Of a stretch of 60,574 nucleotides of DNA, positions 7,552 to 40,741 are shown piece by piece. Position numbers and translations under genes: made by a program. Every line of letters starts with the position of its first letter. Position 1 is the stretch's first letter. The notes under the pieces are model-generated. The model was not told the DNA's origin and did no database searches. It saw only the letters and a list, made by a program, of their open reading frames with translations. Origin of the DNA: an uncultured Salinisphaerales bacterium (lineage in GTDB: Bacteria > Pseudomonadota > Gammaproteobacteria > Nevskiales > CAZYIP01); assembly GCA_964646895.1 (NCBI GenBank), contig CAZYIP010000001.1, positions 1 to 60,574 of the forward strand. Reading direction: 5' to 3'.

Positions 7552-8327
7552 GGTTGGGAGCCTACACGACTTTCCAAATGCAGCAAGTGGTCTTTTCCCC
7601 TACCTGAAATACTTCGTTTCAGGGCGCCTTATATCCCTGACCTGAAGGACGGGGCCTTACGGCGCAATACGGTAAAGTTGTACGGGCATCTGCCGCTATG
7701 CATGGTGCAGCAATGAACTTGGTCTGAGCGCTGCTGTCACTGATTTAACCGGCGTGCGGTAGGTGCGCGGCGGTGTGACAGTGCCATGAAATCAGCAGAG
7801 AGGATCCCGCTTTGGACGAATCGCAGCATGACAGGGACGTCGGTTACAGCTCTCCGATAGATGTTGAGGATGTCGACGTCGGCAACGATTGTGATTGGGG
7901 TGATGAAGACGAGGCACCCGATCCTCGCGTTGCGGTCGTCGGGTACAACTGATTATGCCGTGACGGTGGCGCCCCTGCCTTTGTGCCGGGGCGCCTGCCG
8001 CAACCACGCAACCGGTCTCCGGTACAAAAGCCCTCTGCCATTTTGCTGCGGCCTGCGACCCAAGGTCGCACACAGCCCGGATGCGGCGGATCACCTTATC
8101 AACAGAAGCTGTGGATAACACTGTGTACATTAGCCGGAAATCAGTCCCAATCGGTGATGGGGCCGTGCTTTTTTCCGCCCGTGGTCGAAAACTCGCCAAA
8201 CAGTGTGGGCAGGAACAGTTTGTCTTAAAACTGAACGAAAAGGCGAGGCTGGACAGGGTTCTCCGCCTCGGCGAATATATCGCCATGTTGATGATCCCGA
8301 GCGAGCGGCCACACCCGCGAGCCGTTC

Positions 8328-25009: not shown

Positions 25010-25681
25010 GGATAGCGCGTGGGCGACGCGGCTGAAACACGCCGGGCGCAGCCGCACGGCACATGCGTAGGCGTCCAGAGCAGCCTCCATGGCACCGGAC
25101 GCCTGCAGGCTGATACCCAGATTGAGCGCGGCCTCGAACAGGTCGGGGCGAATCGCCAGCGCCGATCGATAGGCCGCGGCCGCCTCGTCCGGGCGCCGCA
25201 GATCCTGCTCGACCAGGCCGAGATGAAACCAGGCTTCGGCAAGGTCCGGAGCCCGTTCGACTGCCTCACGCAAGGATTTTCGGGCCGCTTCGAGGGCGCC
25301 CGCGTGATAGCAGGCGCGCCCCTGCCTGTGGGCGAGTCGCGCGTCGGCCGGCCAGCGCTCGCGGATGGCGGCCAGCCAATCGGCAGCCTTGCAGGCATCG
25401 CCGCAAGCGATCATCAGGTCGGCTTTTTCGAGGGCCGCTTCAACCGGTGCCGAAGCCGCTGCCAGCGCCTGATCGAACGCGACCAGGGCTGCCTTCGGCT
25501 GGTCAAGATCCCTCAACGTCCGCGCAAGTGCCAGCCAGCCGATCGCATACTGCGGATATCGCTGCAGTTGCGGCAGCAGGTCGTTGGCGCGTGAATCACC
25601 GCAGCGTAACAAGTTGCAAGCGGAACTGAACAGTCCCGCCGGACCGCCTGTGGCACCGGACATTCGCCGCTCTCCAGTCAT
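24941..25681 (-). CDS. Tetratricopeptide-repeat (TPR) protein
   Basis: Repeated A/L-rich 34-aa units (e.g. 'AEAWFHLGLVEQDLRRPDEAAAAYRSALAIRPD'). Convergently overlaps the preceding gene by 69 nt. Confidence 0.7.
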   Translation of the reverse strand: MTGERRMSGATGGPAGLFSSACNLLRCGDSRANDLLPQLQRYPQYAIGWLALARTLRDLDQPKAALVAFDQALAAASAPVEAALEKADLMIACGDACKAADWLAAIRERWPADARLAHRQGRACYHAGALEAARKSLREAVERAPDLAEAWFHLGLVEQDLRRPDEAAAAYRSALAIRPDLFEAALNLGISLQASGAMEAALDAYACAVRLRPACFSRVAHALSSAATGRLWLDPAALRRTLDCRT

Positions 25682-25743
25682 CGCGCAATATCATCCGTAC
25701 ACGAACAGTATCTTGAGAACGAATCGCGCGAAAGGTAAGCTGA

Positions 25744-25757
25744 GCCGCAATTGCGGC
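25744..25757. promoter_or_regulatory. 14-bp perfect palindrome GCCGCAATTGCGGC in the TPR/XRE divergent intergenic region (candidate operator)
   Basis: Read directly from the sequence. Centred ~24 nt upstream of the XRE-type gene ATG (25775). Confidence 0.5.
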
Positions 25758-25774
25758 AGGGAAGGGGGATTGCA

Positions 25775-26179
25775 ATGCGCGCATACGCTAATGAACAAAC
25801 ATGGCAATACCTGCAACGGGCGTTCGAATATCACTGCGCGAAAACTGGTGAAACCATGGAAACGGTTGCAGCGCGGGCCGGCTTTTCGGCGGATTATCTC
25901 GCTTCTCTGGCACGGGCCGGCGGATCGAATATCGGGTTGTCGGAAATCATGCCGCTGTGCGAAGCGGTCCCGGCGCTATTGCCGCATGAACTGCTCTATC
26001 TGCGCCTGCGCGAGCAGGACGACGAAGAGCTGCTGCGCCCCCGTGATCTCAACGCCATGCGTCGTGAGTTTGCCGAGCGCAGGCGTGCCGGCGCCCTGCA
26101 GCGCGGTGAAAACACCAGCTATCCCGATTGGCTGCGTCGACGCCGGGAAAGCGCTCGGCGTGAGAGCGACCCGGCCTGA
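25775..26179 (+). CDS. Small XRE/Cro-type helix-turn-helix protein (putative transcription regulator)
   Basis: 'METVAARAGFSADYLASLARAGGSNIGLSEI' matches the XRE HTH pattern. ATG 25775 is preceded by GGGAAGGGGGA. A 14-bp palindrome lies 18 nt upstream. Confidence 0.55.
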   Translation: MRAYANEQTWQYLQRAFEYHCAKTGETMETVAARAGFSADYLASLARAGGSNIGLSEIMPLCEAVPALLPHELLYLRLREQDDEELLRPRDLNAMRREFAERRRAGALQRGENTSYPDWLRRRRESARRESDPA

Positions 26180-26249
26180 TCCTGAACCCGACAACAGGCT
26201 CCTGAACCCCGCTATCCGACTCCGGCCGTGTTGGCCCACGCCCCTTGCC

Positions 26250-26330
26250 CGCACCCTCCGAAGGAGGGAATCTTCTCCCTGTGCGCGGATTGACACCATA
26301 GTCTCTCTCCCTCGTCCGCGAAGGGTATTT
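26250..26330. repeat. GC-rich short hairpins of the same 'CCCTCC...GGAGGG' style
   Basis: CCCTCC-GAA-GGAGGG at 26254-26268 and a weaker CCCT-N9-AGGG at 26309-26325, in a non-coding stretch downstream of the XRE-type gene. Confidence 0.3.
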
Positions 26331-26481
26331 CAAGGAAAATTCAGGTCTTCCAGGCTACTGTAATTCAAGAAAAAATTAAATAGGCCTGCGACTGTTTGTC
26401 GCACTCTCTTGCTGCGGCGCACAACAGCCCTTAGATTACGCATCACACAAACGCGAAACCGATAACTTGCGGGTAACTGAC

Positions 26482-26643
26482 ATGTCCAGAAACAAGCGCC
26501 TCACCCTCACTCTCCGTAAAGATATTGACAGTGCCCGCTCGCGTTCACGCCTGCGTCGCCGGCAGCGTTCCCTGGCGCGTTTCGCGCAGTGCGAGCGCAA
26601 CCCTGATGTCATATTTCTGCCGCACGGCCTGAACTTCAAGTAA
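26482..26643 (+). CDS. Possible small basic protein (53 aa), unknown function
   Basis: ORF below the track threshold, read by hand: MSRNKRLTLTLRKDIDSARSRSRLRRRQRSLARFAQCERNPDVIFLPHGLNFK. AT-rich upstream region. A hairpin follows it. Confidence 0.2.
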   Translation: MSRNKRLTLTLRKDIDSARSRSRLRRRQRSLARFAQCERNPDVIFLPHGLNFK

Positions 26644-26664
26644 GCGCAGCGGCTGAAAGCCACA

Positions 26665-26700
26665 GGGGGCCAGAGGGATGCCAGCGGTTCGTCGGCCCCC
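26665..26700. terminator. Possible bidirectional hairpin between the small ORF and the cysteine synthase gene
   Basis: GGGGGCC-N22-GGCCCCC. The large loop makes this weak. Confidence 0.25.
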
Positions 26701-26710
26701 GCACCAGTCC

Positions 26711-27709
26711 CTATAGCCAATCCGGCACCGGCAGGCCTTTTTGACGCAAAAAGTCCGGATTGAACAAACGCTGGCGATAACGTACTCCGCTGTCGCATAG
26801 CATGGTAACGATCGTGCGCCCCGGTCCCATCTGTCGCGCCAGGCGGATGGCGCCGGCTACGTTCACGCCGCTGGAGCCGCCGAGGCAGAATCCTTCTTCC
26901 TTCAGCAGGTCGAACACGATGGGCAGGGATTCGCTATCCGGAATCTGAAACGCCTCGTCCACCGGCGCTCCCTCCAGATTGCGGGTAATGCGGCTGTTGC
27001 CGATACCTTCCGAGATGGAGCCGCCCTCGATGATGGGTTCGCTGCCACCCAACTGGCCGTAGAGACCGGAACCGACCGGATCGGCGAGGGCGATCGTGAC
27101 CGCGGGTTCGCGCTCCTTCAACGCCATGGCAACGCCGGCCAGGGTACCACCGGTACCGGCAGCGCACACGAAGCCATCGATCCGCCCGGCGGTCTGCTCC
27201 CAGATCTCGGCGCCGGTGGTCTCGTAGTGGATACGCCGGTTGGCCACGTTGTCGAACTGATTGGCCCATATCACGCCGTGCTCTTCCGTCGCGGCGAGTT
27301 CCTGCGCCAGATGCTCGGAGATGTGCACATAATTCTTCGGGTTGCTGTAGGGTACCGCGGGTACCGTGCGCACCTCGGCGCCGCACAGCCGCAGCATGTC
27401 GATTTTTTCCTGACTCTGGGTCTCCGGTACGACGATGATCGTGCGGTAACCGCGGGTATTTCCAACCAGCGTCAGGCCGATTCCGGTGTTGCCGGCCGAC
27501 CCCTCCACCACCAGACCACCGGGCTCCAGGGCGCCCCGTGCCTCGGCGTCGAGGATGATGCCGAGGGCGGCGCGGTCCTTGACCGACCCGCCGGGATTGG
27601 CAAATTCGGCCTTGCCCAGAATATCGCAGCCGGTGGCCTCGGATGCGCCGCGTAAGCGGATAAGAGGCGTATTGCCGATAGTGCCGAGAAATCCGTCGCG
27701 TATGTCCAT
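26711..27709 (-). CDS. PLP-dependent cysteine synthase / cystathionine beta-synthase family enzyme
   Basis: 'GNTPLIRL', 'KAEFANPGGSVKDRAA' (PLP lysine) and 'GTGGTLAGV'. ATG at 27709 (MDIRDG...). The tracked ORF extends to 27928. Confidence 0.85.
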   Translation of the reverse strand: MDIRDGFLGTIGNTPLIRLRGASEATGCDILGKAEFANPGGSVKDRAALGIILDAEARGALEPGGLVVEGSAGNTGIGLTLVGNTRGYRTIIVVPETQSQEKIDMLRLCGAEVRTVPAVPYSNPKNYVHISEHLAQELAATEEHGVIWANQFDNVANRRIHYETTGAEIWEQTAGRIDGFVCAAGTGGTLAGVAMALKEREPAVTIALADPVGSGLYGQLGGSEPIIEGGSISEGIGNSRITRNLEGAPVDEAFQIPDSESLPIVFDLLKEEGFCLGGSSGVNVAGAIRLARQMGPGRTIVTMLCDSGVRYRQRLFNPDFLRQKGLPVPDWL

Positions 27710-27853
27710 GCTCTGTCTCCGCTGAACCTGTCCTGAAAATGGTAGCGTGTCGTGACCACTGCGTGGCTGTTTTCCGCATCGGGCAACGGCCACGCCAGCG
27801 TATACTTTACCGCTGATTGGACCAATATCGATAAATGAAGAGGGCTTGTCCGC

Positions 27854-29092
27854 GTGATTACCATCGATGACGTACGCCTCGCGGCGGAAACCATTCGTGG
27901 CGGCGTTGTCCGCACCCGCTGCGTGCATTCACGGACGCTGTCGGAATTATGCGGCGCGCAGATTTACATCAAATATGAAAATCACCAGTTTACGGCGTCT
28001 TTCAAGGAACGCGGGGCGCTTAACAAATTAATCAGTCTCAGCGAGGCAGAGCGGGCGCGCGGCGTGGTGGCCATGTCAGCGGGCAATCATGCGCAGGCAG
28101 TGGCACGACACGCCCGGGCGCTCGACATACCGGCGACGATCGTCATGCCCCGCCACACGCCCCATGTAAAGGTACGCAACACAGCCGCCTTCGGCGCCCG
28201 CATCATCCTCGAAGGCGAAACAGTCAGCGAAGCAGGCGAGAGCGCGGCGCGCCTGGCGGAAAGTCATGGCTACTGCTTCATTCACCCATATGACGACGAG
28301 CGCATCATGGCCGGGCAGGGCACGATCGGTATCGAGATGCTGGAGGAGTGCCCGTTCCTCGATCAGATCATCGTGCCGATCGGTGGCGGCGGTCTCATTT
28401 CCGGAATAGCCGTTGCAGCCAGAGCGCTCAAGCCGGACGTCCAGGTAATCGGCGTTCAGACTACGCGCTTCCCTGCCATGCGTCAGGCACTTGCGGGCGA
28501 GCCGGCGTGCTTCGGCAACTCCACCATTGCCGAGGGTATCGCCGTCAAGCAGCCAGGGCGGCTGACGCAGGCGATCGTGCGTGAACAGGTGAACGACATC
28601 GTGCTGGTGGACGAACCGGAGATCGAACGCGCCATTCTCCTGTTGCTGGAAATCGAGAAAACGGTTGCCGAGGGTGCCGGCGCGGCAGCGCTGGCTGCGG
28701 TGCTGAGGGCGCCGGATCGGTTTCAGGGCCAGCGCGTGGGCATCGTCCTGTCGGGCGGCAATATCGACCTGCTGCCACTTTCGGCCGTCATCGAACGTGG
28801 CCTTGTCCGCACGCAGCGCGTGCTGCGGGTACGCGTGGGCATCCCGGACATTCCCGGAGCGCTGGCCGACCTTACCCGATTGCTGGCGGATCACAATGCC
28901 AATGTCGTTCAAATCGCCCACCAGCGCGCCTTCACGGATCTGTCCATTCGCTCGGTGGAGGTGGAAGCCGTACTGGAAACACTGGGCGGAGATCATATCC
29001 GGGAGGTGATCCAGGCTCTGAGCGACAACGGCTACGATGCCGTCGTCACCGACGGCGCACCGCACCCCGATGAACGTAATGTCAGAGTATAA
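27854..29092 (+). CDS. Threonine ammonia-lyase (threonine dehydratase), short form with one C-terminal ACT-like domain
   Basis: 'HQFTASFKERGALNK' PLP-lysine motif. 'PIGGGGLISG'. ~410 aa. GTG start. Confidence 0.85.
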   Translation: MITIDDVRLAAETIRGGVVRTRCVHSRTLSELCGAQIYIKYENHQFTASFKERGALNKLISLSEAERARGVVAMSAGNHAQAVARHARALDIPATIVMPRHTPHVKVRNTAAFGARIILEGETVSEAGESAARLAESHGYCFIHPYDDERIMAGQGTIGIEMLEECPFLDQIIVPIGGGGLISGIAVAARALKPDVQVIGVQTTRFPAMRQALAGEPACFGNSTIAEGIAVKQPGRLTQAIVREQVNDIVLVDEPEIERAILLLLEIEKTVAEGAGAAALAAVLRAPDRFQGQRVGIVLSGGNIDLLPLSAVIERGLVRTQRVLRVRVGIPDIPGALADLTRLLADHNANVVQIAHQRAFTDLSIRSVEVEAVLETLGGDHIREVIQALSDNGYDAVVTDGAPHPDERNVRV

Positions 29093-29589
29093 TATTGCGC
29101 ATAACATAGGTTATGTTAAATAATATTCGTCTGACAATAATCTCAAACCTGTTGCGACCATTACCTCAAGGGTTTCCCCTCACCCGGTTATTCAATACGC
29201 CGTTAAGGCAGGTCACCTAATCGACGGTGACCGGGTGCTCCCGGATCAGGGAAGGAATGCCAGTCGGGTTTCAACATGCAGAATGTCAATAAAAGCCGGT
29301 TTCCGATAAACCGGATGGCATCGGAAACCAGCTTTTATCTGCCTGACCAGCAACGGGTGAATGCGCCTGGTATCTCGTTCCGCATTCCCGCACAAGAAAC
29401 CGGCAAAGACCTGTTGGATATGCCACACCGGCGATACCTGTATCCGGTCCGATCAGGTGTCAGCAGATGTCTGACATTCAATCGCCCGGTATTCAGATCT
29501 TCGCCGGTGTGGCAACGCTATTGATCAGCGAATCCCCAACAAACAGCCAGCTCGTTGGGTCGTATCTTCGGCGACGGGAAGAACACGGT

Positions 29590-29991
29590 TCAGACGCGGA
29601 AATCGTCCAGGGTCTTGCCCTTGTCCAGTGCTTCCTTTAGCCAGTTGGGCGGACGGCCCGTTCCGGCCCATGTTTTGGACGGGTCTTTCGGATCACGAAA
29701 CCGAACTGTCTTGCCGGCGCCGGATTTGGACGAGCCCGCCCGGCGGCCCGTCGTACCGGACAGTTTGACACGCATGTTGGCAGCGATCGCATTCAGCACA
29801 TCGGTGCGCTTGACCTTCATTTCGTCCGCCACCTGCCGAATGTCATTGGCAATACGGACAACGTTCTCATCCGATGATTTCACCGTTTTCCGGCTTGCCT
29901 CCTTCTCAATGCGGCGCATCTGCCGTGTTGCCTGCCTTACGATCTTCCTCAGCTCGGCTTTGTTCAGTTCCTTAACATTGATGTCGTTCAT
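29590..29991 (-). CDS. H-NS-family nucleoid-associated DNA-binding protein
   Basis: N-terminal coiled-coil region. C-terminal 'TWAGTGRPPNWLKEAL' matches the H-NS 'TWxGRGRxPxW' DNA-binding motif. ATG 29991 (MNDINVK...). Embedded in AT-rich DNA. Confidence 0.75.
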   Translation of the reverse strand: MNDINVKELNKAELRKIVRQATRQMRRIEKEASRKTVKSSDENVVRIANDIRQVADEMKVKRTDVLNAIAANMRVKLSGTTGRRAGSSKSGAGKTVRFRDPKDPSKTWAGTGRPPNWLKEALDKGKTLDDFRV

Positions 29992-30446
29992 ACGCACTTT
30001 GCTTCCAATGATTTGTAGAGGTAGAGAGTCAGGATGTATCAACCACTATACAATAGCACATCATTTTGTACGCGCGGAGATTAACATACCTGCGATTATG
30101 CTAAAAGGGGTTATCGCCATTCTCAATCCGCAAATGGCCAACCTTTCGCCATGGTAACGCGGCTTCAAAAGGCGCCTTTCGCTATCGATGATCCACATTG
30201 CACAGAAGACACGATTTAGCGCTCGCGGTTCAATCTCCTGACGGGAAAAGGCAGGACGAAAGCTCTTTCAAACCACCTGCGCCCGGAAACGAGATCAATG
30301 GCCATTGCCACGCCGCTCGGGATTCCATTCGCCACGCCCGTCGGCTGCGTCTGACCCGACAGGCCGGTATCGGGCATACTGTTATCGGCGTGCGCTCCGC
30401 GCGGGGCCGGTGAATACAGGCAAACAGGGATAGTTGGCTCATAACC

Positions 30447-32528
30447 ATGGACGGAAACCACGGCACACCGCTGGTCATCGTTTCCATTATCGTGGCCATC
30501 ATGGCCTCGTATGCCGTATTCGATCTGGGACGGCGCGCGAGTTCCACGGCGGGGCGATGGGCCTGCGGGTGGCACCTGGGCGGTGCACTGACGGTGGCCA
30601 TCGGCCTATGGACCATGCACGTCATCGCCATACTGGCGTCGCCGCAAGCGCTCGCGATAGCACAACAGCCGCCGCTCGTACCGGTTTCGCTCATTGTCGC
30701 CGCTGCTTGTGCCCTGCCCGCGCTTGCCCTGGTGGCGCGCCCGCGCCCTTCCGTCATACGCGTTGTGGTTGCAGGCATGCTGCTGGGCATCGCGCTGGCC
30801 AGCATGCATTACACTGCGATGGCGGCGGTGCGGTTGCCCCACATCCGTTACGATCCCTGGCTGGTTGCAGCATCGATCGCCATCGCGATTATCGGCTCGA
30901 TTTCCGCCTTGTGGCTTGCGTTTCGACTCGGCAACGGTGACTCGCCGCGGTGCGTGGCAATTCGCGCGGGCGCGGCCGGAGTGCTCGGTATTGCCGCAAC
31001 CGCCTTGCACTACATGGCAGTGGCCGCTATCCCTCTCGCGCCTCTCGGCGGCTGGCCGGCGGAGCTGATCCACGGCGAAACGGTGTCGGGCGTGTCGGAG
31101 CTGGCGGTACTGGTTTCGTTATTCAGTTTCGCCATCTTCATCATCATCGTTCTGGCATCCATGTTCGATGCCCGTCTGGCCAGCCGCACCCGCCAACTGC
31201 TGGCGCGGATTCAGTACGCCAATGGTCAGCTCAGACGAGCGTTGCGAGCGCTCGAAAACAGCCAGCAGCGCTATCGCTCCCTGTTCGAAAATCATCCGGA
31301 TGCCGTGTATTCCCTGGATTTGCGCGGTCGTTTCACTGCCGCCAATCAGCAGGCGTTCGAGCTTCTGGGCGTCGGCAAGGACGATCTCGATAAACTTCGC
31401 TTCGAGAGCTGCGTGGCGCCGGAGGACGCAGCGCGTGCCAAAAGCCTGTTCGAGAAGGCCTGCGCGGGCACGTCGCAAAATGTGGATATCGACTGTCTTC
31501 ATGCGGATGGCAGCCGTTTTCGCGCCAATGTCACCCACGTGCCCATTATCGTCGGCAAACGCGTGACCGGTGTGTACGGCATCGCGAAAAACGTAAGCCG
31601 CCGTCATCAGGCGGAACAAGCGCTGGTATTGGCAGCCAATGCGTTGGAAAACACGCGGGAAGGCGTGGCCATCATCGATCCCGATCATCGGGTGGTGTTC
31701 CTCAACCGCGCGTACCACCGCATCACCGGGCGCGCGTCCCGCTCCCTGCTTGGACGGCGGCTCGATTACCCGGAGCTGCCGCGGCAATCGGCCGCATTCA
31801 TCGCCGGTGTCTGGAAACAGGTCGCCGAGCAGGGCCATTGGGAAGGCGAGATCTGGAACCGCCGTGAGAGCGGCAAACTGTATCCTGAACTGCTGAGCAT
31901 CAGCACGGTTACGGATGAGGATGACCAGATCAGCCATTATGTGCTGGTATTCAACGATATTTCGTCGTCGAAGAATTATGTGTCCCGGCTCAAATTCATA
32001 GCGCACCACGACACGCTGACAGGCATGCCGAACCGCGCCAGCCTGTGGGACCGCGGACGCGGCGCAATTGCCCGCGCAGCGCGCAACGCCAGCCTGCTCG
32101 CAATCCTGTTCATGGATCTGGATCAGTTCAAGGCGATCAACGACTCGCTGGGTCATGCGGCGGGCGACGAGGTCCTCAGGCAAGCCGCCATCCGGCTCAA
32201 GAGTTGCCTGCGCGACACCGACACTCTCGCGCGGCTGGGCGGTGACGAGTTCGTTCTGATGCTGGAGGGCCTGAAACGCCCCGAAGACGCCGTGCGCGTT
32301 GCCGAGGCAGTGCAGCATGGCTTTGCCCTGCCATTCCAGTACGCCGACCGGAAACTGTTCCTTTCGGCCAGCATCGGGATCAGTTGCTATCCCCGCGACG
32401 GGACCGATTTCGATACTCTGATGAAATGCGCCGACGCAGCGATGTACCAGTGCAAGCGTGACGGGGACCGCTGGTATCGTTTTTTCTCGTCGGAATCGGC
32501 TGCCGATGCCGCTGAAGCGCCGGCATGA
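30447..32528 (+). CDS. MHYT-domain / PAS / PAS / GGDEF diguanylate cyclase
   Basis: Three membrane MHYT-type motifs ('MHVIAI', 'MHYTAMAAV', 'LHYMAVAAI'). Two PAS-like segments. 'LGGDEFVLML' active site with 'FKAINDSLGHAAGD'. No EAL domain. Confidence 0.9.
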   Translation: MDGNHGTPLVIVSIIVAIMASYAVFDLGRRASSTAGRWACGWHLGGALTVAIGLWTMHVIAILASPQALAIAQQPPLVPVSLIVAAACALPALALVARPRPSVIRVVVAGMLLGIALASMHYTAMAAVRLPHIRYDPWLVAASIAIAIIGSISALWLAFRLGNGDSPRCVAIRAGAAGVLGIAATALHYMAVAAIPLAPLGGWPAELIHGETVSGVSELAVLVSLFSFAIFIIIVLASMFDARLASRTRQLLARIQYANGQLRRALRALENSQQRYRSLFENHPDAVYSLDLRGRFTAANQQAFELLGVGKDDLDKLRFESCVAPEDAARAKSLFEKACAGTSQNVDIDCLHADGSRFRANVTHVPIIVGKRVTGVYGIAKNVSRRHQAEQALVLAANALENTREGVAIIDPDHRVVFLNRAYHRITGRASRSLLGRRLDYPELPRQSAAFIAGVWKQVAEQGHWEGEIWNRRESGKLYPELLSISTVTDEDDQISHYVLVFNDISSSKNYVSRLKFIAHHDTLTGMPNRASLWDRGRGAIARAARNASLLAILFMDLDQFKAINDSLGHAAGDEVLRQAAIRLKSCLRDTDTLARLGGDEFVLMLEGLKRPEDAVRVAEAVQHGFALPFQYADRKLFLSASIGISCYPRDGTDFDTLMKCADAAMYQCKRDGDRWYRFFSSESAADAAEAPA

Positions 32529-32794
32529 TGAAAAACAACTCTGCCCAGGCCGGCGCGCAGCATGATCCGCCACCGCCGAACATGGCACTGCAGTACGCCA
32601 ATGATCGGGCGAAACTAACCGTTTGTCGTAACGTTTTTGGCGGAATTTCGCGTATTGCGGCCATGCAAGCCCAGGCCCGGAACCGGATCTCCCGCGTTAA
32701 GTGCCCAATCGCAAGCCTGATCGTGCAGTAACGACACGATATTTGCCCCGAACGTCCGAATCGAGCCGCGAATTACGCGATATTGTGCGGCAAG

Positions 32795-32821
32795 CCCAAT
32801 TGCGGAGCCCGCAATTGCGGG
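32795..32821. promoter_or_regulatory. Tandem AATTGCGG palindromic sites upstream of tagH (candidate operator pair)
   Basis: Perfect 14-bp palindrome CCCGCAATTGCGGG at 32808-32821 plus a degenerate copy GCCCAATTGCGG at 32794-32805, with centres 14 bp apart, ~110 nt upstream of the tagH ATG. The core 12-mer CCGCAATTGCGG is identical to the site at 25745-25756. Confidence 0.5.
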
Positions 32822-32929
32822 CACGCCGGCGCATGGAGTAAATTGCCGCGCAAGGGCCGTGCACCAAACAAAAGCCGAAGCAGACGCGCGCGCTCCGTTA
32901 TCCGCCCTGGCCATCAAAATGAGTCACAC

Positions 32930-34384
32930 ATGTCGTTGACGCTGCAGGTCGTCCGCTACCAGGGTGCGACGCCGGCGCACCCGGTGTCGGTCTCTGTCAA
33001 TCAGCAGCCGGTCATCATCGGACGGCGGCCGGACTGCGATTTGCTTCTGGCCGACCCCGAACGCTTCATTTCCAGCCAGCACGCACAGGTATCGTGGAAT
33101 AACGGCGCCTATTATCTGGCCGACACCAGCACCAATGGCACCTACATCAACCACGCGGAGACACCGGTCGGGCAGGACGGTGCGGTACAACTCAACGACG
33201 GCGACGAAATCACCATAGGCGACTACGACATACAGGTTCACGTCAGCGCTGCGACTGCGCCCGAAGTTGCCACCATTCCACCCGCGCCGCAGGACCCTTT
33301 CGGCAGCGTGGCACCGCCACCGCCAGCCGCACCACCGCCACCTGACGCCGGCATGAGCTCGCCGCCGTTCGCGCCGCCTCCCCTGATACCGGAGGATCCC
33401 GTGGTCGGTGGCGATGAACCGCTCGATCCATTGCAACTGATCGACGGTGTAGCGGACGAATTTTCCAGCCCTGGGCAGCCCTGGCCGGGCGCACAGTCCG
33501 ATCCGTCGTCGGTGCTGCACGACGTCGACCATGCGCAGGAACCGCCAGCGGATGCCTGGCTCGGCCAGTCCGGCTCCGTGCCCGACGATATTCCGGCCGA
33601 TCAGGCGTACTTCGCGCCGCCACAAGCCATCCCCGAAGATTGGGACGTGCTTGACGACACATCCGAGCCACCGCCACCGCAGCCGGCACCACAACCCGCG
33701 CCTGTTGCACCACCACAACCCGAGCCGCCGCCTGCCGCACCAGTGGCCGCGCCGGCAACACCGGCGACGCCACCCGCTGTCGACGCCGATGCCGCCCGTG
33801 CGCTGCTTGCGGGTCTGGGGCTGGAAAAGGTCCAGCTCGACAGTGCGGAAACAGCCCGGCTGATGCAGCTGGTCGGCGAATTGCTGCGCGAAATGACCAC
33901 CGGCGTCATGCGCATTCTGGCCAATCGCGCCAGCCTCAAGAATCAGATGCGCATGGACATGACCACGATCAAGGCGGCGGAAAACAATCCCCTCAAGTTT
34001 TCCAGCGGGGCCGAAGATGCCCTCAACCGCCTGCTGATCAACCCGGGACAGGGCTATCTGCCACCGCGGCGCGCGGTGCGCGAGGCGATCGACGATCTGC
34101 AGGTGCACGAGCTGGCCCTGATGGCCGGTCTGCGGGCCGCGTTGACGGCACAGTTCGAACGCCTGGCGCCGCAGCAGGTGGAACAGCGGGTAAAGCGATC
34201 ATCCCTGCTCGGCTCATCGCGCAAGGCCCACTGCTGGGAACAGTACATCACCTTGTACAAGCAACTGCGCAACCAGGCCGAGGACGATGCGCTGCGCCTG
34301 GCCGGCGATGCATTCATGGAAGCCTACGAAGCCCAGGTACGGCAGATCGGAGCGGCGCGGGACAAGGGTGACGACGAGCGCTGA
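32930..34384 (+). CDS. tagH: T6SS FHA-domain protein TagH/Fha (ImpI/VasC family)
   Basis: FHA core 'IIGRRPDCDLLLADPERFISSQHAQVSWNNGAYYLADTSTNGTYIN'. Pro-rich linker. Conserved ImpI-type C-terminal domain. ATG 32930; the tracked ORF starts at 32783. Confidence 0.85.
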   Translation: MSLTLQVVRYQGATPAHPVSVSVNQQPVIIGRRPDCDLLLADPERFISSQHAQVSWNNGAYYLADTSTNGTYINHAETPVGQDGAVQLNDGDEITIGDYDIQVHVSAATAPEVATIPPAPQDPFGSVAPPPPAAPPPPDAGMSSPPFAPPPLIPEDPVVGGDEPLDPLQLIDGVADEFSSPGQPWPGAQSDPSSVLHDVDHAQEPPADAWLGQSGSVPDDIPADQAYFAPPQAIPEDWDVLDDTSEPPPPQPAPQPAPVAPPQPEPPPAAPVAAPATPATPPAVDADAARALLAGLGLEKVQLDSAETARLMQLVGELLREMTTGVMRILANRASLKNQMRMDMTTIKAAENNPLKFSSGAEDALNRLLINPGQGYLPPRRAVREAIDDLQVHELALMAGLRAALTAQFERLAPQQVEQRVKRSSLLGSSRKAHCWEQYITLYKQLRNQAEDDALRLAGDAFMEAYEAQVRQIGAARDKGDDER

Positions 34385-34442
34385 GCACAGGCGCCACAGA
34401 ACAGCGAATCTCAACCAACCGACAACGATCCGGGGATCCTTC

Positions 34443-34940
34443 ATGAAAATTTCGCGTCACATGCTCGCCGCCCTGCTGTGGCTGACCCTGCCGGCCGCCC
34501 TCCTCTCCCTCGGTGGCTGTTCGTCCCTCAATCCGTTCGGCCCTGGTCCCACCAGCGTTGCGGCGACGGTAAGCGCGACTCCCAACGTCAACCCCAATGC
34601 CGACGGGCGTCCATCGCCCATCGTGGTGCGCATTTATTACCTGAGCGACAAGGCACCCTTCGAGAATGCGGATTTCTTCACCCTGTTCGACAAGGACGCG
34701 GCGGCGCTCGGCAGCGCCATGCTCAGCCGGCATGAATACGAACTGAAACCCGGCGCCAGCCGGAAGCTCGAAGAGAAACCACCGCAGGGCGCCAACTATA
34801 TTGCAGCGCTGGCCGCATATCAGGACATCGACGGCGCCCGCTGGCGCGCCGTCTACCCGATCGAGCCGCATCAGGACAACCGCATCACGATCCAGATCGG
34901 TGCGGATGCAGTATCCGTTATCGCCGCGACCGACGACTGA
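34443..34940 (+). CDS. tssJ: T6SS outer-membrane lipoprotein TssJ
   Basis: Lipobox 'LSLGGCSS'. ~165 aa. 'PIVVRIYYLSD...FFTLF' is typical of TssJ/SciN. Positioned between tagH and tssK. Confidence 0.75.
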   Translation: MKISRHMLAALLWLTLPAALLSLGGCSSLNPFGPGPTSVAATVSATPNVNPNADGRPSPIVVRIYYLSDKAPFENADFFTLFDKDAAALGSAMLSRHEYELKPGASRKLEEKPPQGANYIAALAAYQDIDGARWRAVYPIEPHQDNRITIQIGADAVSVIAATDD

Positions 34941-34978
34941 CATAGCCAGGGCCTGTTGACGGGCCCCAGGAGAACGAA

Positions 34979-36313
34979 ATGTCCTGGCGCAACAAGGTCG
35001 TATGGTCGGAAGGCTTGTTCCTGCGACCACAGCACCTGCAGCAGCACGACCGCTACATCGAACACCTGATCCACGCCGCCGGCCGCGGGCGGGTCTGCGC
35101 ATGGGGAGTCGATGCGCTCGAAATCGACCGCGACCTGCTCGCGCTGGGCAAATTCTCGCTGGCGCGGTGCCGCGGTGTCATGCCGGACGGCACCCCTTTT
35201 AATGTCCCCGACGACGACCCGCCGCCACCCCCCCTGGAGCCCGGCACCGATGTGCACGGGCAGATCGTGTATCTCGCACTGCCGGTGCGCCAGGCGGGCA
35301 CGGCCGAGGCCGCCCTCGACGAGTCCGTCACCGGCATGCATCGCTATCGCGCCGAGCCGCTGGATGTACGCGACGGCATCGCCGGCATGAACACGACGGC
35401 CAGCGTCGCGGTCGGCCGCCTGTGTCTGCGCTCGATGCTGCAGCAGGAGGACCGCAGCGGCTATGCCTGCATTCCCGTGGCCCATATCGCGGAATGCCGC
35501 GCCGACAAGCAGATCATCCTCGACGAGGAGTTCATGCCCACCAGCCTGGACTACAAGGCCACGCCGCGGCTGGCGAGCTTCATGACCGAGTTGCGCGGAC
35601 TGCTGCGCTATCGCGCCGAGTCCCTGGCCGGGCGCATCAGCGCCTCGGGGCGTGGCGGCGCGGCGGAAATTGCGGATTTCATGCTGTTGCAGGCCGTCAA
35701 TCGCATGGAGCCGCTGATCGCCCACCTGGGCAACGTGCGTGGTTTGCACCCGGAACAGGTCTACCGCCAGTTCGTCCAGATCGCCGGCGAACTCGCCACT
35801 TTCACCAGCAAGGAAAAACAGGCACCGGAGTTTCCGGCCTATCAGCATGAAGATCTGCGCGCCACCTTTACGCCCGTGATTGCCGCGCTGCGCCAGTCCC
35901 TGTCCATGGTGATGGAGCAAAACGCCATCCCGGTTCCGCTCCAGGAGCGCAAATTCGGGGTACGCGTGGCGCCCATCGCCGACCACAAGCTGTTGCAGGA
36001 TGCGACCTTCGTCCTGGCCGTCAATGCCGACGTTCCGAGCGACACGCTGCGCAGCCGGTTTCCTACCCAGATCAAGATCGGCCCTACCGAGCAGATCCGG
36101 CAACTGGTCAACCTGCAGCTGCCGGGCATCGGGCTGCGGCCGCTACCGGTCGCGCCCAGGCAGATTCCTTATCACGCCGGTTTTACCTATTTCGAACTGG
36201 ACCGGAGCAGCCAGTTCTGGAAGCAGCTGGAGAGTTCCGGCGGCTTTGCGATGCACATTGCGGGTAATTTTCCGGGGCTGGAACTCGAATTCTGGGCGAT
36301 CAGGGCCCGTTAA
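34979..36313 (+). CDS. tssK: T6SS baseplate/membrane-complex connector TssK (ImpJ/VasE)
   Basis: 'VVWSEGLFLRPQHLQQHDRY' is the hallmark TssK N-terminus. 444 aa. Confidence 0.9.
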   Translation: MSWRNKVVWSEGLFLRPQHLQQHDRYIEHLIHAAGRGRVCAWGVDALEIDRDLLALGKFSLARCRGVMPDGTPFNVPDDDPPPPPLEPGTDVHGQIVYLALPVRQAGTAEAALDESVTGMHRYRAEPLDVRDGIAGMNTTASVAVGRLCLRSMLQQEDRSGYACIPVAHIAECRADKQIILDEEFMPTSLDYKATPRLASFMTELRGLLRYRAESLAGRISASGRGGAAEIADFMLLQAVNRMEPLIAHLGNVRGLHPEQVYRQFVQIAGELATFTSKEKQAPEFPAYQHEDLRATFTPVIAALRQSLSMVMEQNAIPVPLQERKFGVRVAPIADHKLLQDATFVLAVNADVPSDTLRSRFPTQIKIGPTEQIRQLVNLQLPGIGLRPLPVAPRQIPYHAGFTYFELDRSSQFWKQLESSGGFAMHIAGNFPGLELEFWAIRAR

Positions 36314-36339
36314 CGATTACCCACTGGGGATGAGCGGCC

Positions 36340-37272
36340 ATGAGTGACGACGATAAAACGGTGATGCGGCAGCCTCTGGCCGACGACCGCACAGTGATGC
36401 GCCCACGCCCCGGCGGCAACCGCGGCGCGACCCCACCGCCATCGGCGCCGCCACCAACGGCACCGGCCGCACCGCCGCCGCCGCAAACAGGCGCGGCGCC
36501 CGTGCCGCTACCGCTGTCCACGGCTGGCATCAATCCGCTGGTGGCCGCGGCCTCGACCCTGCTGGCGCTGATCAATCAGTTGCGCGGTACCGCGCAACAG
36601 GGCGATGTCAACCTGCTGCGCACCCAGATCATGCACGCCATACGCGCATTCGAACGCGATGCGCAGGGCGCGGGCGTCAGCCGCGAGATGACGCTCACCG
36701 GGAGATACATTCTGTGCGCCGCGCTCGACGAAACCGTGCTCGGGACACCCTGGGGCAGCAACAGCTTCTGGAGCAGTCACAGCCTGCTGAGCACCTTTCA
36801 CAACGAAACCTGGGGCGGCGAAAAAGTCTTCATTTTGCTCGAGCGTTTCAGTCAGGCGCCGGCGGCACACCTGGACATGCTTGAGCTGATCTACCTCTGC
36901 CTCAGCCTCGGCTTTCGCGGCAAGTACATGATCATGCAGGGTGGCGCGGAGCATCTGGAAACGGTGCGCCTGCGCCTGTACGAGCAGATCCGCGCCCAGC
37001 GACCGGCGTTCGAGCGCGAGCTCTCACCCCACTGGCAACCGCAGGCGAGCGCCCGCGGCGGGCTGCGACGCTACCTGCCGCTGTGGGTGGTGGCCGCCTG
37101 TGCGGGTGCGGTACTGGTACTGGTGTATATCGGACTCACCTTCTGGCTCGGCACCCTGGCCAGCCCGCTCGAACACGAACTGCAACGTATCGGCACTGAA
37201 TATGCCGCGGTCTCGACCGCGCCTCCTCCAACGCAGGATGTCGCCGGCGCTGGCGCGGGGGCACACGAATGA
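36340..37272 (+). CDS. tssL: T6SS inner-membrane protein TssL (DotU/IcmH family), no OmpA/PG-binding extension
   Basis: Pro-rich N-terminus, DotU core ('NPLVAAASTLLALINQLR...YLCLSLGFRGKY') and a single C-terminal TM helix. Stop overlaps the tssM start (ATGA). Confidence 0.85.
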   Translation: MSDDDKTVMRQPLADDRTVMRPRPGGNRGATPPPSAPPPTAPAAPPPPQTGAAPVPLPLSTAGINPLVAAASTLLALINQLRGTAQQGDVNLLRTQIMHAIRAFERDAQGAGVSREMTLTGRYILCAALDETVLGTPWGSNSFWSSHSLLSTFHNETWGGEKVFILLERFSQAPAAHLDMLELIYLCLSLGFRGKYMIMQGGAEHLETVRLRLYEQIRAQRPAFERELSPHWQPQASARGGLRRYLPLWVVAACAGAVLVLVYIGLTFWLGTLASPLEHELQRIGTEYAAVSTAPPPTQDVAGAGAGAHE

Positions 37273-40200
37273 AGGCGGTGAAGGACTTCTTCAGGCAGCG
37301 ATGGGTCATCACGCTGATCGGACTGATCGCGCTGATCATCCTGGTCTGGTTCGGTGGCCCCTACCTGGGGCTGGGGTCTTCGCAGCCCCTGGCGAGCCGG
37401 TTCAGCCGCCTGTTGCTGGTGCTGATTCTGGTGATCATCTGGGGGTTGCACAATCTGTGGCTGCAGTTGCGCAGCCGTCAGACCAATGCCCGCATGGTCG
37501 AAGACATGGGGCAGGCGGAGGACGACGGGGCGGCACTCACCCAGCAGTCGGCCGAAGAAGCGGCCACCCTGCGCGAGCGCTTCGGCGAAGCCATGGCGAT
37601 CCTCAAGCGCACCCGGATGCAGGGCAGCCGCGGCCGGCACTATGTTTACGAGTTGCCCTGGTACGTCATCATCGGCCCGCCCGGCGCCGGCAAGACTACC
37701 GCGCTGGCCAACTCGGGCCTGGAGTTTCCGCTGGCCGAGCACTTCGGCAAGGACGCGGTGCGCGGGGTCGGCGGCACCCGCAACTGCGACTGGTGGTTCA
37801 CCAACGACGCGGTCCTGCTGGACACGGCCGGCCGCTACACCACCCAGGACAGCCAGCAGAGCGTTGATAGTGCCGCCTGGCACAATTTTCTGTCATTGCT
37901 CAAAAAGTTCCGCCCACGCCGCCCCATCAATGGCATTCTCGTCGCCATCAGTCTGGATGACGTGGCGCAGCAGGGCAGCGAGGCACGTGAGCAGCATGCG
38001 CGTGCGATCCGCCAGCGCATCGGCGAGCTGTATGAACGCCTCGGCGTGCAGGTTCCGATCTACCTGATCTTCACCAAGGTGGACCTGCTCGCCGGTTTTA
38101 CCGAAGTCTTCGACGACATGGATCGCGAGCAGCGTGCCCAGGTCTGGGGGGTCACGCTGGATGGCTCGGAGGCGCCGGGGGCCGACGGAATCGCCGCCCG
38201 CTTTGGCGCCGAATACGACGCCCTGCTGGCTCGCATCAACCAGCGCATGCTGTGGCGCCTGCAGGAAGAACGGGATGTGACCCGGCGCGGTCTGATCCAT
38301 GGCTTTCCGCAGCAAATGGCGACCATCAAGCCGGCGCTGGAAAACTTTCTCGAAATCGCGTTCCGCTCCAACCGCTATGAGCAGAAAGCACCCCGGGTGC
38401 GCGGCATCTACTTCACCAGCGGAACCCAGGAAGGCGCGCCGATCGATCGCATCATGGCGTCGCTGGCGCGCAACTTCGGCGTTGGTGCACAGGCACTGGC
38501 CGCGCATCGCAACCAGGGGCGCAGTTACTTTCTCACCCGTTTGCTGCGCGATGTCGTATTCCACGAAGCAGAACTGGTAGGCACCAATCGCCGCTTCGAG
38601 AAGCAACTGCGCCTGCTGCGGATCGGCGGCTACGCCGTCGTGCTCGGGCTGGGTGCGCTGGTGATCGTCGCCTGGGCGGCCGGTTTCGCACGCAATCAAA
38701 GCTATCTCAGCGCGCTCGATCAGCGCGTCAACGATTATCACACGGCTGCTCACGCCCTGACACCGCAGGCGGATCTGACCCAGGCATTGCCGGTACTCAA
38801 TGCCGCTGGCAACCTTGCAGGCACTTACACTCAAAATGGCGATCACAGCCCGTGGACGCTGGGCATGGGGCTGTTCCACGCACGCGAACTCGCGAGCGAG
38901 TCGCGGGCCGCCTACCGCCGGGTGCTCCAGGGCTTGCTGTTGCCTTACCTGGATCGGCGCGTCGAGTCGGCACTCATTCGCGATGCCGAGCACCCGGAAG
39001 CTCTGCAAAAGGCGCTGACCGTTTATCTCATGCTGGGCTCGCCGGACACCCTGCAGCCAACGGTCGTCCAGCGCTGGGCATTGCAGGACGTGGCGTCATC
39101 GCTGGGCGATGGCACCCAGGGCCGCACCCAGTTTCAGGGTCATCTGGAAAACCTGTTTTCCGGCCCGGTGCCCGCGAGCCAGCCCGACCCGCAGCTGCTC
39201 GCCCAGGCCCGCCAGGCCGTATGCCGCATTCCGCTGGCGGATCAGGTCTATAGTCGTCTTGTGCAGTTGGCCGAAGGCGCGAAGCTGCCGTCCTTCTCGC
39301 TGAATACCGCAGGCCCGGACGTGGCGCGCTATTTCCGTGCGAGTGCCGGCGGCGAAATACCCGGCCTGTACACGGCGCACGGCTATCAAACGATCATGGT
39401 CAAGGAAACGCCCGCGCTCACGTCGCAGGTCATCGACCAGAATCGCCGGGTGTGCGAAGGCTTCGACACCGCATCAGCCGATGCCAAAGCGATATCCAGC
39501 CAGATCCAGAAACGTTATTTTTCAGAATATACAACCAAGTGGGATACATTCCTAAGTAACCTTCACATCACCGGTTTCGAGGGCGCCGCACAATCGGCTA
39601 CCACCCTCAAGGCTTTGTCCGGCGACGACTCTCCCATGGCGAAGCTGCTCACCGCGATTGCCGGGCAACTGGCCTTGCCGGCCGCCGCACCCGCGGCTTC
39701 GCCCGCAGCCAGCGACGAAAGCAAGAAGGCGCCGGAAACGCAACTGGTCAGTGCGCATTATCGCGATCTCGTCGCCCTGACTGCTGCGAAAGGCGACAAT
39801 CCACCACCGCTCGCGGGCCTTCTCGCTACCCTGGGCGAGGTACGCGACTACCTGTTTACCATTACCGCCAGCGCCGACAGTGGCAAGGCGGCCTACACGG
39901 CGGCGGCCCAGAGCATGGCCAGTGGCGGTGATGCCAGCATCGCCAAGCTGCGGCGCATGGCGGCTGACCTGCCCGCTCCGGTCGCCGGCTGGATGAACGT
40001 GGCTGCGACGCACGTCTGGGGCAGTGTGCTCGGCGGCGCGCACCACTACGTCAATCAGCAATGGCGGGCCATCGTGGTGGAGCCCTACCGCGCCAGCCTG
40101 CAAGGCCGCTATCCCCTGTCCCGCGATGCTTCCAAACAGGCCACCCTCGCGGATTTCGGCCGCTTCTTCGGTCCCGGCGGGATTCTTCCCGGTTTCGTCA

Positions 40201-40736: not shown

Positions 40737-40741
40737 GCGCG

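What the first reader, a model, noticed from the sequence alone, without database searches (positions are those of the whole stretch)
25744..32821. The same 12-bp palindrome CCGCAATTGCGG sits upstream of a small XRE-type regulator gene and upstream of the T6SS tagH operon
CCGCAATTGCGG occurs exactly twice in the window, at 25745-25756 and 32809-32820. The first lies within the 14-bp palindrome GCCGCAATTGCGGC, ~20 nt before the HTH gene ATG, in a 93-bp divergent intergenic region. The second lies within the 14-bp palindrome CCCGCAATTGCGGG, ~110 nt before tagH, next to a degenerate second copy 14 bp away. A given 12-mer is one of about 1.7e7 possibilities, so two intergenic hits in 60 kb are unlikely by chance. 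Dimeric XRE/Cro proteins typically bind such dyads and autoregulate. This suggests the 134-aa HTH protein both autoregulates and controls the T6SS membrane-complex operon.
Basis: partly seen in the sequence, partly recalled or inferred. Interest (0 to 1): 0.6.

Follow-up and report, generated by a model that had tools for sequence, protein, structure and literature searches.

The report
Shared palindrome: XRE-like gene, T6SS promoter
The same perfect 12-base palindrome sits on the predicted start site of a rare helix-turn-helix gene and on the conserved -35 region of the type VI secretion tagH promoter 7 kb away, which fits a shared repressor site, but relatives keep neither palindrome, so the link is plausible and unproven.

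Summary
CCGCAATTGCGG occurs exactly at 25745-25756 and 32809-32820. The only other copy in the 3.54-Mb genome lies inside a coding region. It is not a dispersed repeat.

A repeated non-coding 12-bp palindrome is expected in roughly 1% of windows, not 1 in 10^7.

The 134-aa protein matches no sequence family. Only two homologue clusters exist in 5.8 billion proteins. Its AlphaFold model is nevertheless a five-helix XRE/lambda-repressor-like HTH.

Site 1 covers the predicted +1 of the gene's own promoter. Site 2 is a 16-bp perfect palindrome whose right arm is the -35 hexamer of the only sigma-70-like promoter before tagH. That promoter block is the best-conserved part of the region in two relatives. 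Both positions are classical repressor positions.

Against the link:
- The relatives' tagH block is not palindromic.
- Orthologous HTH genes (71% and 64% identity) carry no such dyad upstream.
- In the relative the HTH gene and the T6SS lie on different contigs.
- A different conserved dyad next to the HTH gene is a better-supported candidate operator.

Verdict: a lineage-specific shared operator is the single most likely reading (about 0.35). Coincidence is nearly as likely. Interest is modest.

The parts
25713..25741 (+). Predicted sigma-70-like promoter of the HTH gene, TTGAGA-N17-TAAGCT. The inferred +1 is near 25748.
   Evidence: It is the only match to TTGNNN-N16-19-TANNNT in 25640-25790 on either strand. 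The genome density of this loose pattern is 0.31 per kb. Not verified experimentally.
25744..25757 (.). Site 1: the 14-bp perfect palindrome GCCGCAATTGCGGC, which contains the 12-mer at 25745-25756. It spans about -4 to +9 of the predicted HTH promoter and lies 18 nt before the ATG.
   Evidence: It is intact in five strain-level variants at 99.6-99.9% identity. It is absent from the orthologous loci L002 and L003.
25775..26179 (+). Gene for a 134-aa orphan protein with an XRE/lambda-repressor-like five-helix HTH domain (helices 9-24, 28-35, 39-46, 55-64, 70-82) and two Arg-rich C-terminal helices.
   Evidence: No Pfam or NCBIfam family matches. There are 3 clusters in 5.8e9 proteins and one 50%-identity cluster in the exhaustive HMMER search. 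The AF2 model has pLDDT 78, and above 90 over residues 11-50. All top Foldseek PDB hits are XRE-fold regulators. The gene is under purifying selection.
32794..32805 (.). Degenerate neighbouring copy GCCCAATTGCGG, with two mismatches. Its centre lies 15 bp upstream of the centre of site 2.
   Evidence: It is not alignable in relatives. It may be a diverged 15-bp tandem duplication (inference).
32807..32822 (.). Site 2: the 16-bp perfect palindrome GCCCGCAATTGCGGGC, which contains the 12-mer at 32809-32820. Its right arm, TTGCGG, is the predicted -35 hexamer of the tagH promoter.
   Evidence: Positions 32811-32822 form one of the two best-conserved 12-nt blocks of the 400-bp upstream region (10/12 three-way identity against a 37% background). 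The relatives read CTGCGATTGCGG and GCGCGATTGCAG, which are not palindromic.
32815..32844 (+). Predicted sigma-70-like tagH promoter, TTGCGG-N18-TAAATT. The inferred +1 is near 32851.
   Evidence: It is the only TTGNNN-N16-19-TANNNT match in the 401-bp upstream region. It is conserved with identical spacing as TTGC[GA]G-N18-TAGATT in L029, L030 and L031.
32838..32849 (+). Conserved block GTAAATTGCCGC, which holds the -10 region and a third AATTGCSG copy.
   Evidence: 10/12 three-way identity. Together with the two sites it forms the only cluster of three or more AATTGCSG words in the whole genome.
32930..34384 (+). tagH (FHA plus T6SS_FHA_C), the first gene of the T6SS membrane-complex operon tagH-tssJ-tssK-tssL-tssM-tagF-pppA.
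   Evidence: Pfam. The genes are 61-86% identical to the L031 operon.

Best explanation
The palindrome is a lineage-specific operator shared by two promoters. It is most probably bound by a dimer of the adjacent 134-aa XRE-fold protein acting as a repressor.

At its own gene the dyad covers the predicted transcription start, which would give autorepression. At tagH the dyad covers the -35 hexamer of the only recognisable, and conserved, promoter. A weaker second dyad lies 15 bp upstream. Bound protein would therefore exclude RNA polymerase from the T6SS membrane-complex operon.

Shown here: the sequences, their uniqueness in the genome, the HTH fold (as a prediction), and the conservation of the tagH promoter block.

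Inferred: the promoters and start sites, binding by this protein, and the sign of regulation.
For: - Exact 12-mer at both sites. Each extends independently to a longer perfect palindrome of 14 and 16 bp.
- These are the only two intergenic copies in 3.54 Mb. They are also the only intergenic clusters of AATTGCSG words, and the tagH region is the sole cluster of three or more in the genome.
- A shared 12-mer between these two particular regions has p about 0.003.
- Site 1 abuts the start of a gene whose product is predicted to fold as an XRE/lambda-repressor-like HTH. Top PDB fold matches are lambda cI, C.BclI, ClgR, C.AhdI, DdrO and SinR. There is also a marginal profile hit to C.BclI.
- Each region holds a single loose sigma-70-type promoter match in the right orientation. 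The dyads fall at +1 and at -35.
- The tagH promoter block is phylogenetically conserved, so site 2 lies in functional DNA.
- No other obvious transcription factor gene lies between 23 and 43 kb apart from an H-NS-like gene.
Against: - Orthologous HTH genes at 71% and 64% identity have no such dyad, or any alignable element, upstream.
- The relatives' tagH block keeps the sequence GCGATTGC[GA]GGC but only 4/6 and 3/6 symmetric pairs. What is conserved there is therefore a promoter element, not a dyad.
- In metagenome SRR6877289 the HTH orthologue and the T6SS lie on different contigs. Their upstream regions share nothing beyond chance (8 nt, p = 0.68).
- A different dyad, TGCGAC-N5-GTCGCA, is conserved in all three relatives just upstream of the promoter of the small ORF that follows the HTH gene. 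It is a better-supported candidate for this protein's operator.
- The outermost palindrome positions differ between the sites (G..C against C..G). A protein reading those bases would not be expected to allow that.
- Post-hoc chance is about 1% per window.
Confidence: 0.35

Rival explanations
1. Coincidence built on a promoter element. The tagH copy is the conserved -35 block of the tagH promoter. One to three lineage-specific substitutions and a small tandem duplication happen to make it palindromic. The copy before the HTH gene is an unrelated chance match, and no common factor binds both.
For: - Relatives conserve GCGATTGC[GA]GGC without dyad symmetry. The window's 12-mer differs from theirs at only 2-3 positions.
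- Repeated 12-bp palindromes are common in shuffles, at 8-41%.
- 14 of 140 distinct non-coding palindromic 12-mers recur in this genome.
- GCAATTGC shows no intergenic enrichment: 14 of 97 copies are intergenic, against about 11% non-coding DNA.
- Neither site is conserved as a dyad in relatives.
- While following another lead I found a second, equally 'improbable' pair of perfect 12-specified-base dyads in the window's non-coding DNA. So such pairs do turn up.
Against: - Both copies are non-coding, 7 kb apart, and each is independently extended to 14 or 16 bp.
- One abuts a DNA-binding gene and the other sits on a -35 hexamer.
- p is about 0.003 for this pair of regions.
- The tagH region holds a genome-unique cluster of four AATTGCSG words.
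Confidence: 0.3
2. Both palindromes are operators of a transcription factor encoded elsewhere in the genome, not of the adjacent XRE-like protein.
For: - The HTH family's conserved neighbouring dyad, TGCGAC-N5-GTCGCA, is unlike the palindrome.
- The HTH gene is syntenic core DNA, whereas the T6SS arm is at a lineage-specific place.
- The recognition helix (SADYLASLAR) is poor in the polar residues usual for base contacts, as read from the sequence.
Against: - A factor with only two intergenic sites in the genome, one of them 18 nt from the start of an HTH gene, is most simply that gene's own product.
- No relaxed version of the motif marks other promoters.
- In the relative, the other T6SS promoter region has no RATTGC word.
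Confidence: 0.15
3. The palindromes act as nucleic-acid hairpins, either RNA 5'-UTR or read-through stem-loops or DNA cruciforms, and not as protein-recognition sequences.
For: The outer stem positions differ between the sites but stay complementary within each (G-C against C-G, plus one extra pair at site 2). That pattern is what base pairing would give. The stems are predicted to form.
Against: - Folding energies are no better than shuffles, with z of -0.13 and -0.51.
- No Rfam family matches.
- No T-tract follows either stem, and no terminator-like site was called at either palindrome.
- With the predicted promoters, neither hairpin would be fully transcribed from its own promoter.
- There are only three copies in the genome.
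Confidence: 0.05

Closest known systems
Autoregulated XRE/Cro-cI-type repressors (phage 434 and lambda repressors, SinR, ClgR, DdrO)
   Same: Predicted five-helix HTH fold. Small dimer-sized protein. A perfect 14-16-bp dyad with a central AATT overlaps the predicted +1 of its own promoter, and a second site overlaps a -35 hexamer.
   Different: No sequence membership in HTH_3 or any related Pfam model. It is an orphan family of three clusters. The operator is not conserved in orthologues. Binding is untested.
Restriction-modification controller (C) proteins (C.AhdI, C.BclI, C.Esp1396I) and their C-boxes
   Same: They are among the best fold matches, and C.BclI gives the only marginal profile hit. 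From my own knowledge, C-proteins bind paired dyads about 15-16 bp apart just upstream of their own genes. The two tagH dyads here are 15 bp apart.
   Different: No restriction or methylase genes are nearby. The paired dyads are at tagH, not at the regulator's own gene, where there is a single dyad.
Known direct transcriptional controls of T6SS clusters (sigma-54/VasH-type activators, plasmid TetR repressors in Acinetobacter, H-NS/MvaT silencing, Fur boxes)
   Same: A dedicated cis-element sits in the promoter of a core T6SS operon. An H-NS-like gene and a GGDEF gene lie just upstream.
   Different: There is no GG-N10-GC sigma-54 spacing at tagH (read from the sequence). The candidate regulator has an XRE fold. 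A full-text search for XRE-family regulators binding T6SS promoters returned eight papers. I read only their titles and abstract openings, and none of these pointed to a precedent.

Membership tests
XRE / Cro-cI HTH family (Pfam HTH_3 PF01381 and relatives) | Significant sequence match to an XRE-type HTH model | tested here: not met
   No Pfam hit at E<=0.01. At E<=10 only HTH_AraC appears, at 0.22. NCBIfam gives nothing relevant. The PDB profile search gives C.BclI at E=0.75 only.
XRE / Cro-cI HTH family (Pfam HTH_3 PF01381 and relatives) | Five-helix lambda-repressor-like fold with helix 2-turn-helix 3 | tested here: met
   The AF2 model has pLDDT above 90 over residues 11-50 and helices at 9-24, 28-35, 39-46, 55-64 and 70-82. 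The top 50 Foldseek PDB hits are almost all XRE-fold regulators, with probability about 1 and TM (target) 0.55-0.77, although E-values are only 0.04-0.3. This is a prediction from a 3-sequence alignment.
XRE / Cro-cI HTH family (Pfam HTH_3 PF01381 and relatives) | Dimer binds a dyad-symmetric operator, typically overlapping its own promoter | not testable with these tools
   A perfect dyad lies at the predicted +1, but it is not conserved in orthologues. There is no binding assay.
R-M controller (C) proteins | Encoded within or next to a restriction-modification operon, with C-boxes upstream of the C gene | tested here: not met
   The neighbours are TPR, 2OG-oxygenase-like and PALP enzymes, H-NS and GGDEF genes. 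There is a single dyad upstream of the gene.
Dispersed repeat (REP/MITE-like palindromic element) | Many copies genome-wide, mostly intergenic, with conserved flanks | tested here: not met
   There are 3 exact copies in 3.54 Mb, one of them coding. The core GCAATTGC is not enriched in intergenic DNA.
Intrinsic terminator | GC-rich stem-loop followed by a T-tract | tested here: not met
   No terminator-like site was called at either palindrome. No T-run follows either stem.
Sigma-54-dependent T6SS promoter | GG-N10-GC (-24/-12) element upstream of the operon | tested here: not met
   Read by eye. GGCACG...GCA is off by one from GG-N10-GC, and TTGC at 32843 has no GG at the required distance. 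The conserved element instead fits TTGNNN-N18-TANNNT.
Conserved T6SS operator | The same motif upstream of tagH in related T6SS loci | tested here: not met
   There is no CAATTG-centred match upstream of tagH in 14 loci with 30-42% TagH identity. The two relatives at 64-65% identity keep a non-palindromic version.

The most novel reading that the evidence does not exclude
An orphan XRE-fold regulator family, known from only three sequence clusters worldwide, was recruited in one lineage as the repressor of a type VI secretion membrane-complex operon. The recruitment happened after that operon was relocated next to it. A perfect operator evolved de novo on the pre-existing -35 block of the tagH promoter, and a matching one evolved on the regulator's own start site. 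This would be a datable example of regulatory rewiring by operator gain.
Probability: 0.3. Interest if true: 0.45.

Novelty: new member of a known kind. Interest (0 to 1): 0.3.

Why it matters
If true, it would name a direct, locally encoded repressor for a T6SS operon in an uncultured bacterium. It would also assign a function to an orphan HTH family, and show a recent operator gain on an otherwise conserved promoter. This is an ordinary kind of control circuit, so the value is mainly as a testable annotation. If false, it is a useful caution that exact palindrome pairs in GC-rich non-coding DNA are far less improbable than 4^-12 suggests.

Tried and rejected
- Dispersed repeat: rejected, with only 3 copies.
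- Global regulon: relaxed motifs show no promoter bias. Neighbours of the few one-mismatch intergenic sites are unrelated to T6SS.
- Conserved T6SS operator: absent from 14 distant tagH loci. It is also absent from the relative's other T6SS promoter region.
- Relatives in the species-representative genomes: none of 40 same-order genomes encodes the HTH protein, and no genome of the same family is held.
- Metagenome pattern scan for the conserved tagH promoter block: one hit, a chance match inside ABC-transporter genes.
- Weak exhaustive-HMMER hits: these are LysM-repeat proteins, spurious look-alikes of the HTH motif.
- Small ORF homologue search: nothing found.
- RNA explanations: no Rfam hit, and folding z-scores are not significant.
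- My first two home-made gene callers mis-called the TPR and PALP genes. The third is adequate for coding versus non-coding tallies but still mis-calls the TPR gene. I patched this by hand.
Full report
**Observation.** The 12-mer CCGCAATTGCGG occurs at 25745-25756 and 32809-32820. It occurs nowhere else in the window, even allowing one mismatch.

Site 1 is the 14-bp perfect palindrome GCCGCAATTGCGGC (25744-25757). It lies 18 nt before the ATG of a 134-codon ORF, in the divergent spacer shared with a TPR gene.

Site 2 is a 16-bp perfect palindrome, GCCCGCAATTGCGGGC (32807-32822). It lies 109 nt before the tagH ATG at 32930. A two-mismatch copy, GCCCAATTGCGG (32794-32805), has its centre 15 bp upstream.

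In the whole 3.54-Mb assembly (63.4% G+C) there is one further exact copy. It lies inside an ABC substrate-binding-protein gene on contig C130.

- Composition alone predicts about 0.4 copies per genome.
- Conditioning on the observed counts of GCAATTGC (97) and CGCAATTGCG (10) predicts about 1 copy. Three are seen.
- 41% of dinucleotide shuffles of the window hold some non-overlapping repeated 12-bp palindrome. About 8% hold one with at least 4 A/T.
- The real window has 18 palindromic 12-mers. Only four are non-coding, and two of those four are this pair.
- Genome-wide, 163 non-coding palindromic 12-mers include 14 recurring sequences. That gives an empirical probability of about 0.002-0.003 that two of them are identical.
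- The result is about 1-2% for this window. This is the only recurring pair that lies on one contig within 7 kb.
- For the two specific regions, a shared 12-mer has p about 0.003.

The pair is therefore suggestive, not compelling. In a scan of very many windows, coincidences of this kind must occur.

**The gene at 25775-26179.** It is a real gene. Against its orthologue in L002 it shows 46 codons with synonymous-only differences and 39 with amino-acid changes. Differences are concentrated at third positions.

It has no Pfam or NCBIfam family. It has only two homologue clusters among 5.8 billion proteins, at 71% and 64% identity. An exhaustive profile search of 1.84 billion representatives found only the same family plus spurious LysM-repeat hits.

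The AlphaFold2 model has mean pLDDT 78, and above 90 over residues 11-50. It shows a five-helix N-terminal bundle followed by two Arg-rich helices. Foldseek against the PDB returns almost only XRE/lambda-repressor-fold regulators: lambda cI, C.BclI, ClgR, C.AhdI, DdrO and SinR. Probability is about 1 and target-normalised TM is 0.55-0.77, although E-values are only 0.04-0.3. A profile search of PDB sequences gives C.BclI at E = 0.75.

'XRE-type HTH' is therefore supported at the level of predicted fold and not at the level of sequence family.

**Position of the two sites in promoters (inference).** I used a loose sigma-70 pattern, TTGNNN-N16-19-TANNNT, which occurs at 0.31 per kb genome-wide.

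- It matches once in the HTH/TPR spacer, as TTGAGA-N17-TAAGCT (25713-25741). That places site 1 at about -4 to +9.
- It matches once in the 401-bp tagH upstream region, as TTGCGG-N18-TAAATT (32815-32844). The right arm of site 2 is therefore the -35 hexamer, and the degenerate copy is centred near -51.

Both are classical repressor positions. The stricter built-in scan called no promoter in either region.

**Comparative evidence at tagH.** The GTDB representative genomes hold only distant TagH relatives (42% identity or less). None of them has the motif upstream.

The protein collection gave two closer TagH proteins, at 65% and 64% identity. Their contigs are L029/L030 and L031. The three upstream regions align over about 330 bp.

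Overall three-way identity is 37%. Two blocks stand out at 10/12:
- 32811-32822, GCAATTGCGGGC, which reads GCGATTGC[GA]GGC in the relatives.
- 32838-32849, GTAAATTGCCGC, which reads GTAGATTGCCG in the relatives.

The spacing between the blocks is identical in all three. The element reads TTGC[GA]G-N18-TA[AG]ATT in each.

Site 2 therefore lies in functional, conserved promoter DNA. But the relatives' 12-mers, CTGCGATTGCGG and GCGCGATTGCAG, keep only 4/6 and 3/6 symmetric pairs. The sequence is conserved and the dyad symmetry is not.

In the window lineage both blocks carry A where the relatives carry G (AATTGC against GATTGC). An extra CAATTGCGG copy also lies upstream. Together these make the only cluster of three or more AATTGCSG words in the genome.

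**Comparative evidence at the HTH gene.** The orthologue in L002 comes from sample SRR6877289, the same sample as the T6SS contig L031. Flanking genes are 66-89% identical to those of the window.

L002 sits in a syntenic block: glycerol ABC transporter, 2OG-oxygenase, HTH, small ORF, PALP, H-NS. No T6SS lies within 10 kb.

Neither its upstream region nor that of L003 has the palindrome or any alignable dyad. The L002 HTH and L031 tagH upstream regions share nothing beyond chance, with a longest word of 8 nt and p = 0.68.

In L031 the tagH operon is paired divergently with tssA-tssBC-hcp-tssEFG. In the window's genome the orthologous membrane arm (61-86% identity) stands alone next to hns and a GGDEF gene. 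The best TssC matches elsewhere are only 38-40% identical.

If the regulatory link exists, it arose in this lineage.

**A competing operator for the same protein.** A 53-codon Arg-rich ORF (26482-26643) follows the HTH gene in all three loci, at 74% and 52% identity. Its promoter region is conserved.

Directly upstream of the putative -35 hexamer is a 17-bp dyad, TGCGAC-TGTTT-GTCGCA (26387-26403). It is perfect in the window and retained with one mismatch per arm in L002 and L003. L003 has a second similar dyad about 180 nt upstream of its HTH gene.

This dyad is unlike CCGCAATTGCGG. By conservation it is the better-founded candidate for the operator of this HTH family. That lowers the odds that the protein reads the palindrome.

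**Other readings tested.**
- Not a dispersed repeat.
- Not a terminator.
- No Rfam match, and no exceptional folding energy.
- No sigma-54 geometry, read.

The outer palindrome positions differ between the sites yet stay complementary within each. That hints at base pairing. With two sites this is only an anecdote, and the predicted start sites would leave both stems untranscribed.

Strain-level variants at 99.6-99.9% identity all keep site 1, but the region has no SNPs at all, so this says nothing.

**Conclusion.** Comparative data do not corroborate it, and there is a rival candidate operator for the protein.

My odds:
- About 0.35 for a lineage-specific shared operator of the adjacent HTH protein.
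- About 0.30 for coincidence built on a conserved promoter element.
- About 0.15 for another factor binding both sites.
- About 0.05 for a hairpin role.
- The rest is unassigned.

A full-text search returned no clear precedent for an XRE-family protein binding a T6SS promoter, judged from titles and abstract openings only. The circuit would still be an ordinary kind of local repression.

Noticed in passing
window 26387-26643: An unannotated, conserved 53-aa Arg-rich small ORF (26482-26643, MSRNKRLTLTLRKDIDSARSRSRLRRRQRSLARFAQCERNPDVIFLPHGLNFK) follows the HTH gene in the window, L002 and L003 (74% and 52% identity). It has a conserved promoter-like block (TTGCTG-N17-TAGATT, 26409-26437). A perfect 17-bp dyad, TGCGAC-N5-GTCGCA (26387-26403), lies just upstream. 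The ORF matches no family and no homologues were found.
   Followed up: partly
window 8054-8070: A second perfect copy of the dyad TGCGAC-N5-GTCGCA (TGCGACCCAAGGTCGCA) lies in non-coding DNA between the IS605 OrfB/TnpB-like gene and a YgjP-like gene. These are the only two perfect copies in the genome, and both are non-coding and in this window. The meaning is unknown. It also shows that such 'improbable' pairs do turn up.
   Followed up: no
window 6217-7551 (-): TnpB/OrfB_IS605 gene with an HTH_OrfB_IS605 domain and a Cas12f1-like TNB domain. No adjacent tnpA was seen.
   Followed up: no
window 32930-42205 versus L031: In the closest relative (L031) the tagH-tssJKLM-tagF-pppA arm is paired divergently with tssA-tssBC-hcp-hcp-tssEFG and preceded by a PAS-GGDEF-EAL gene. 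In L029 it is preceded by pqqD and radical-SAM genes. In this genome the arm follows an MHYT-PAS-PAS-GGDEF gene, and no orthologous sheath arm was found. The best TssC matches are 40% on C156 and 38% on C112. The arm travels with about 330 bp of its own upstream region.
   Followed up: partly
genome contigs C23:21930, C40:3906, C43:11417, C43:22010, C58:18960, C218:4242: The palindrome TCGCACGTGCGA has six non-coding copies genome-wide, by far the most recurrent non-coding 12-bp palindrome. It is a candidate regulon motif or small repeat family.
   Followed up: no
window 26187-26384: Strain-level variants from five metagenomes (99.6-99.9% identical) concentrate their SNPs in the spacer between the HTH gene and the small ORF. 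The SNPs stop 3 nt before the TGCGAC dyad. There are none between 25227 and 26172.
   Followed up: no
window 26711-29092: Two PLP-dependent (PALP) enzyme genes face each other head to head. One is on the minus strand (26711-27928). The other is a PALP+ACT threonine-dehydratase-like gene on the plus strand (27854-29092, as called). The called starts overlap by 75 nt, so one start is probably later.
   Followed up: no
window 30168-30307: The only other non-coding 12-bp palindromes of the window, AAAGGCGCCTTT (30168) and CAATGGCCATTG (30296), both lie between the hns-like gene and the GGDEF gene. They are 140-280 nt upstream of the GGDEF start.
   Followed up: no
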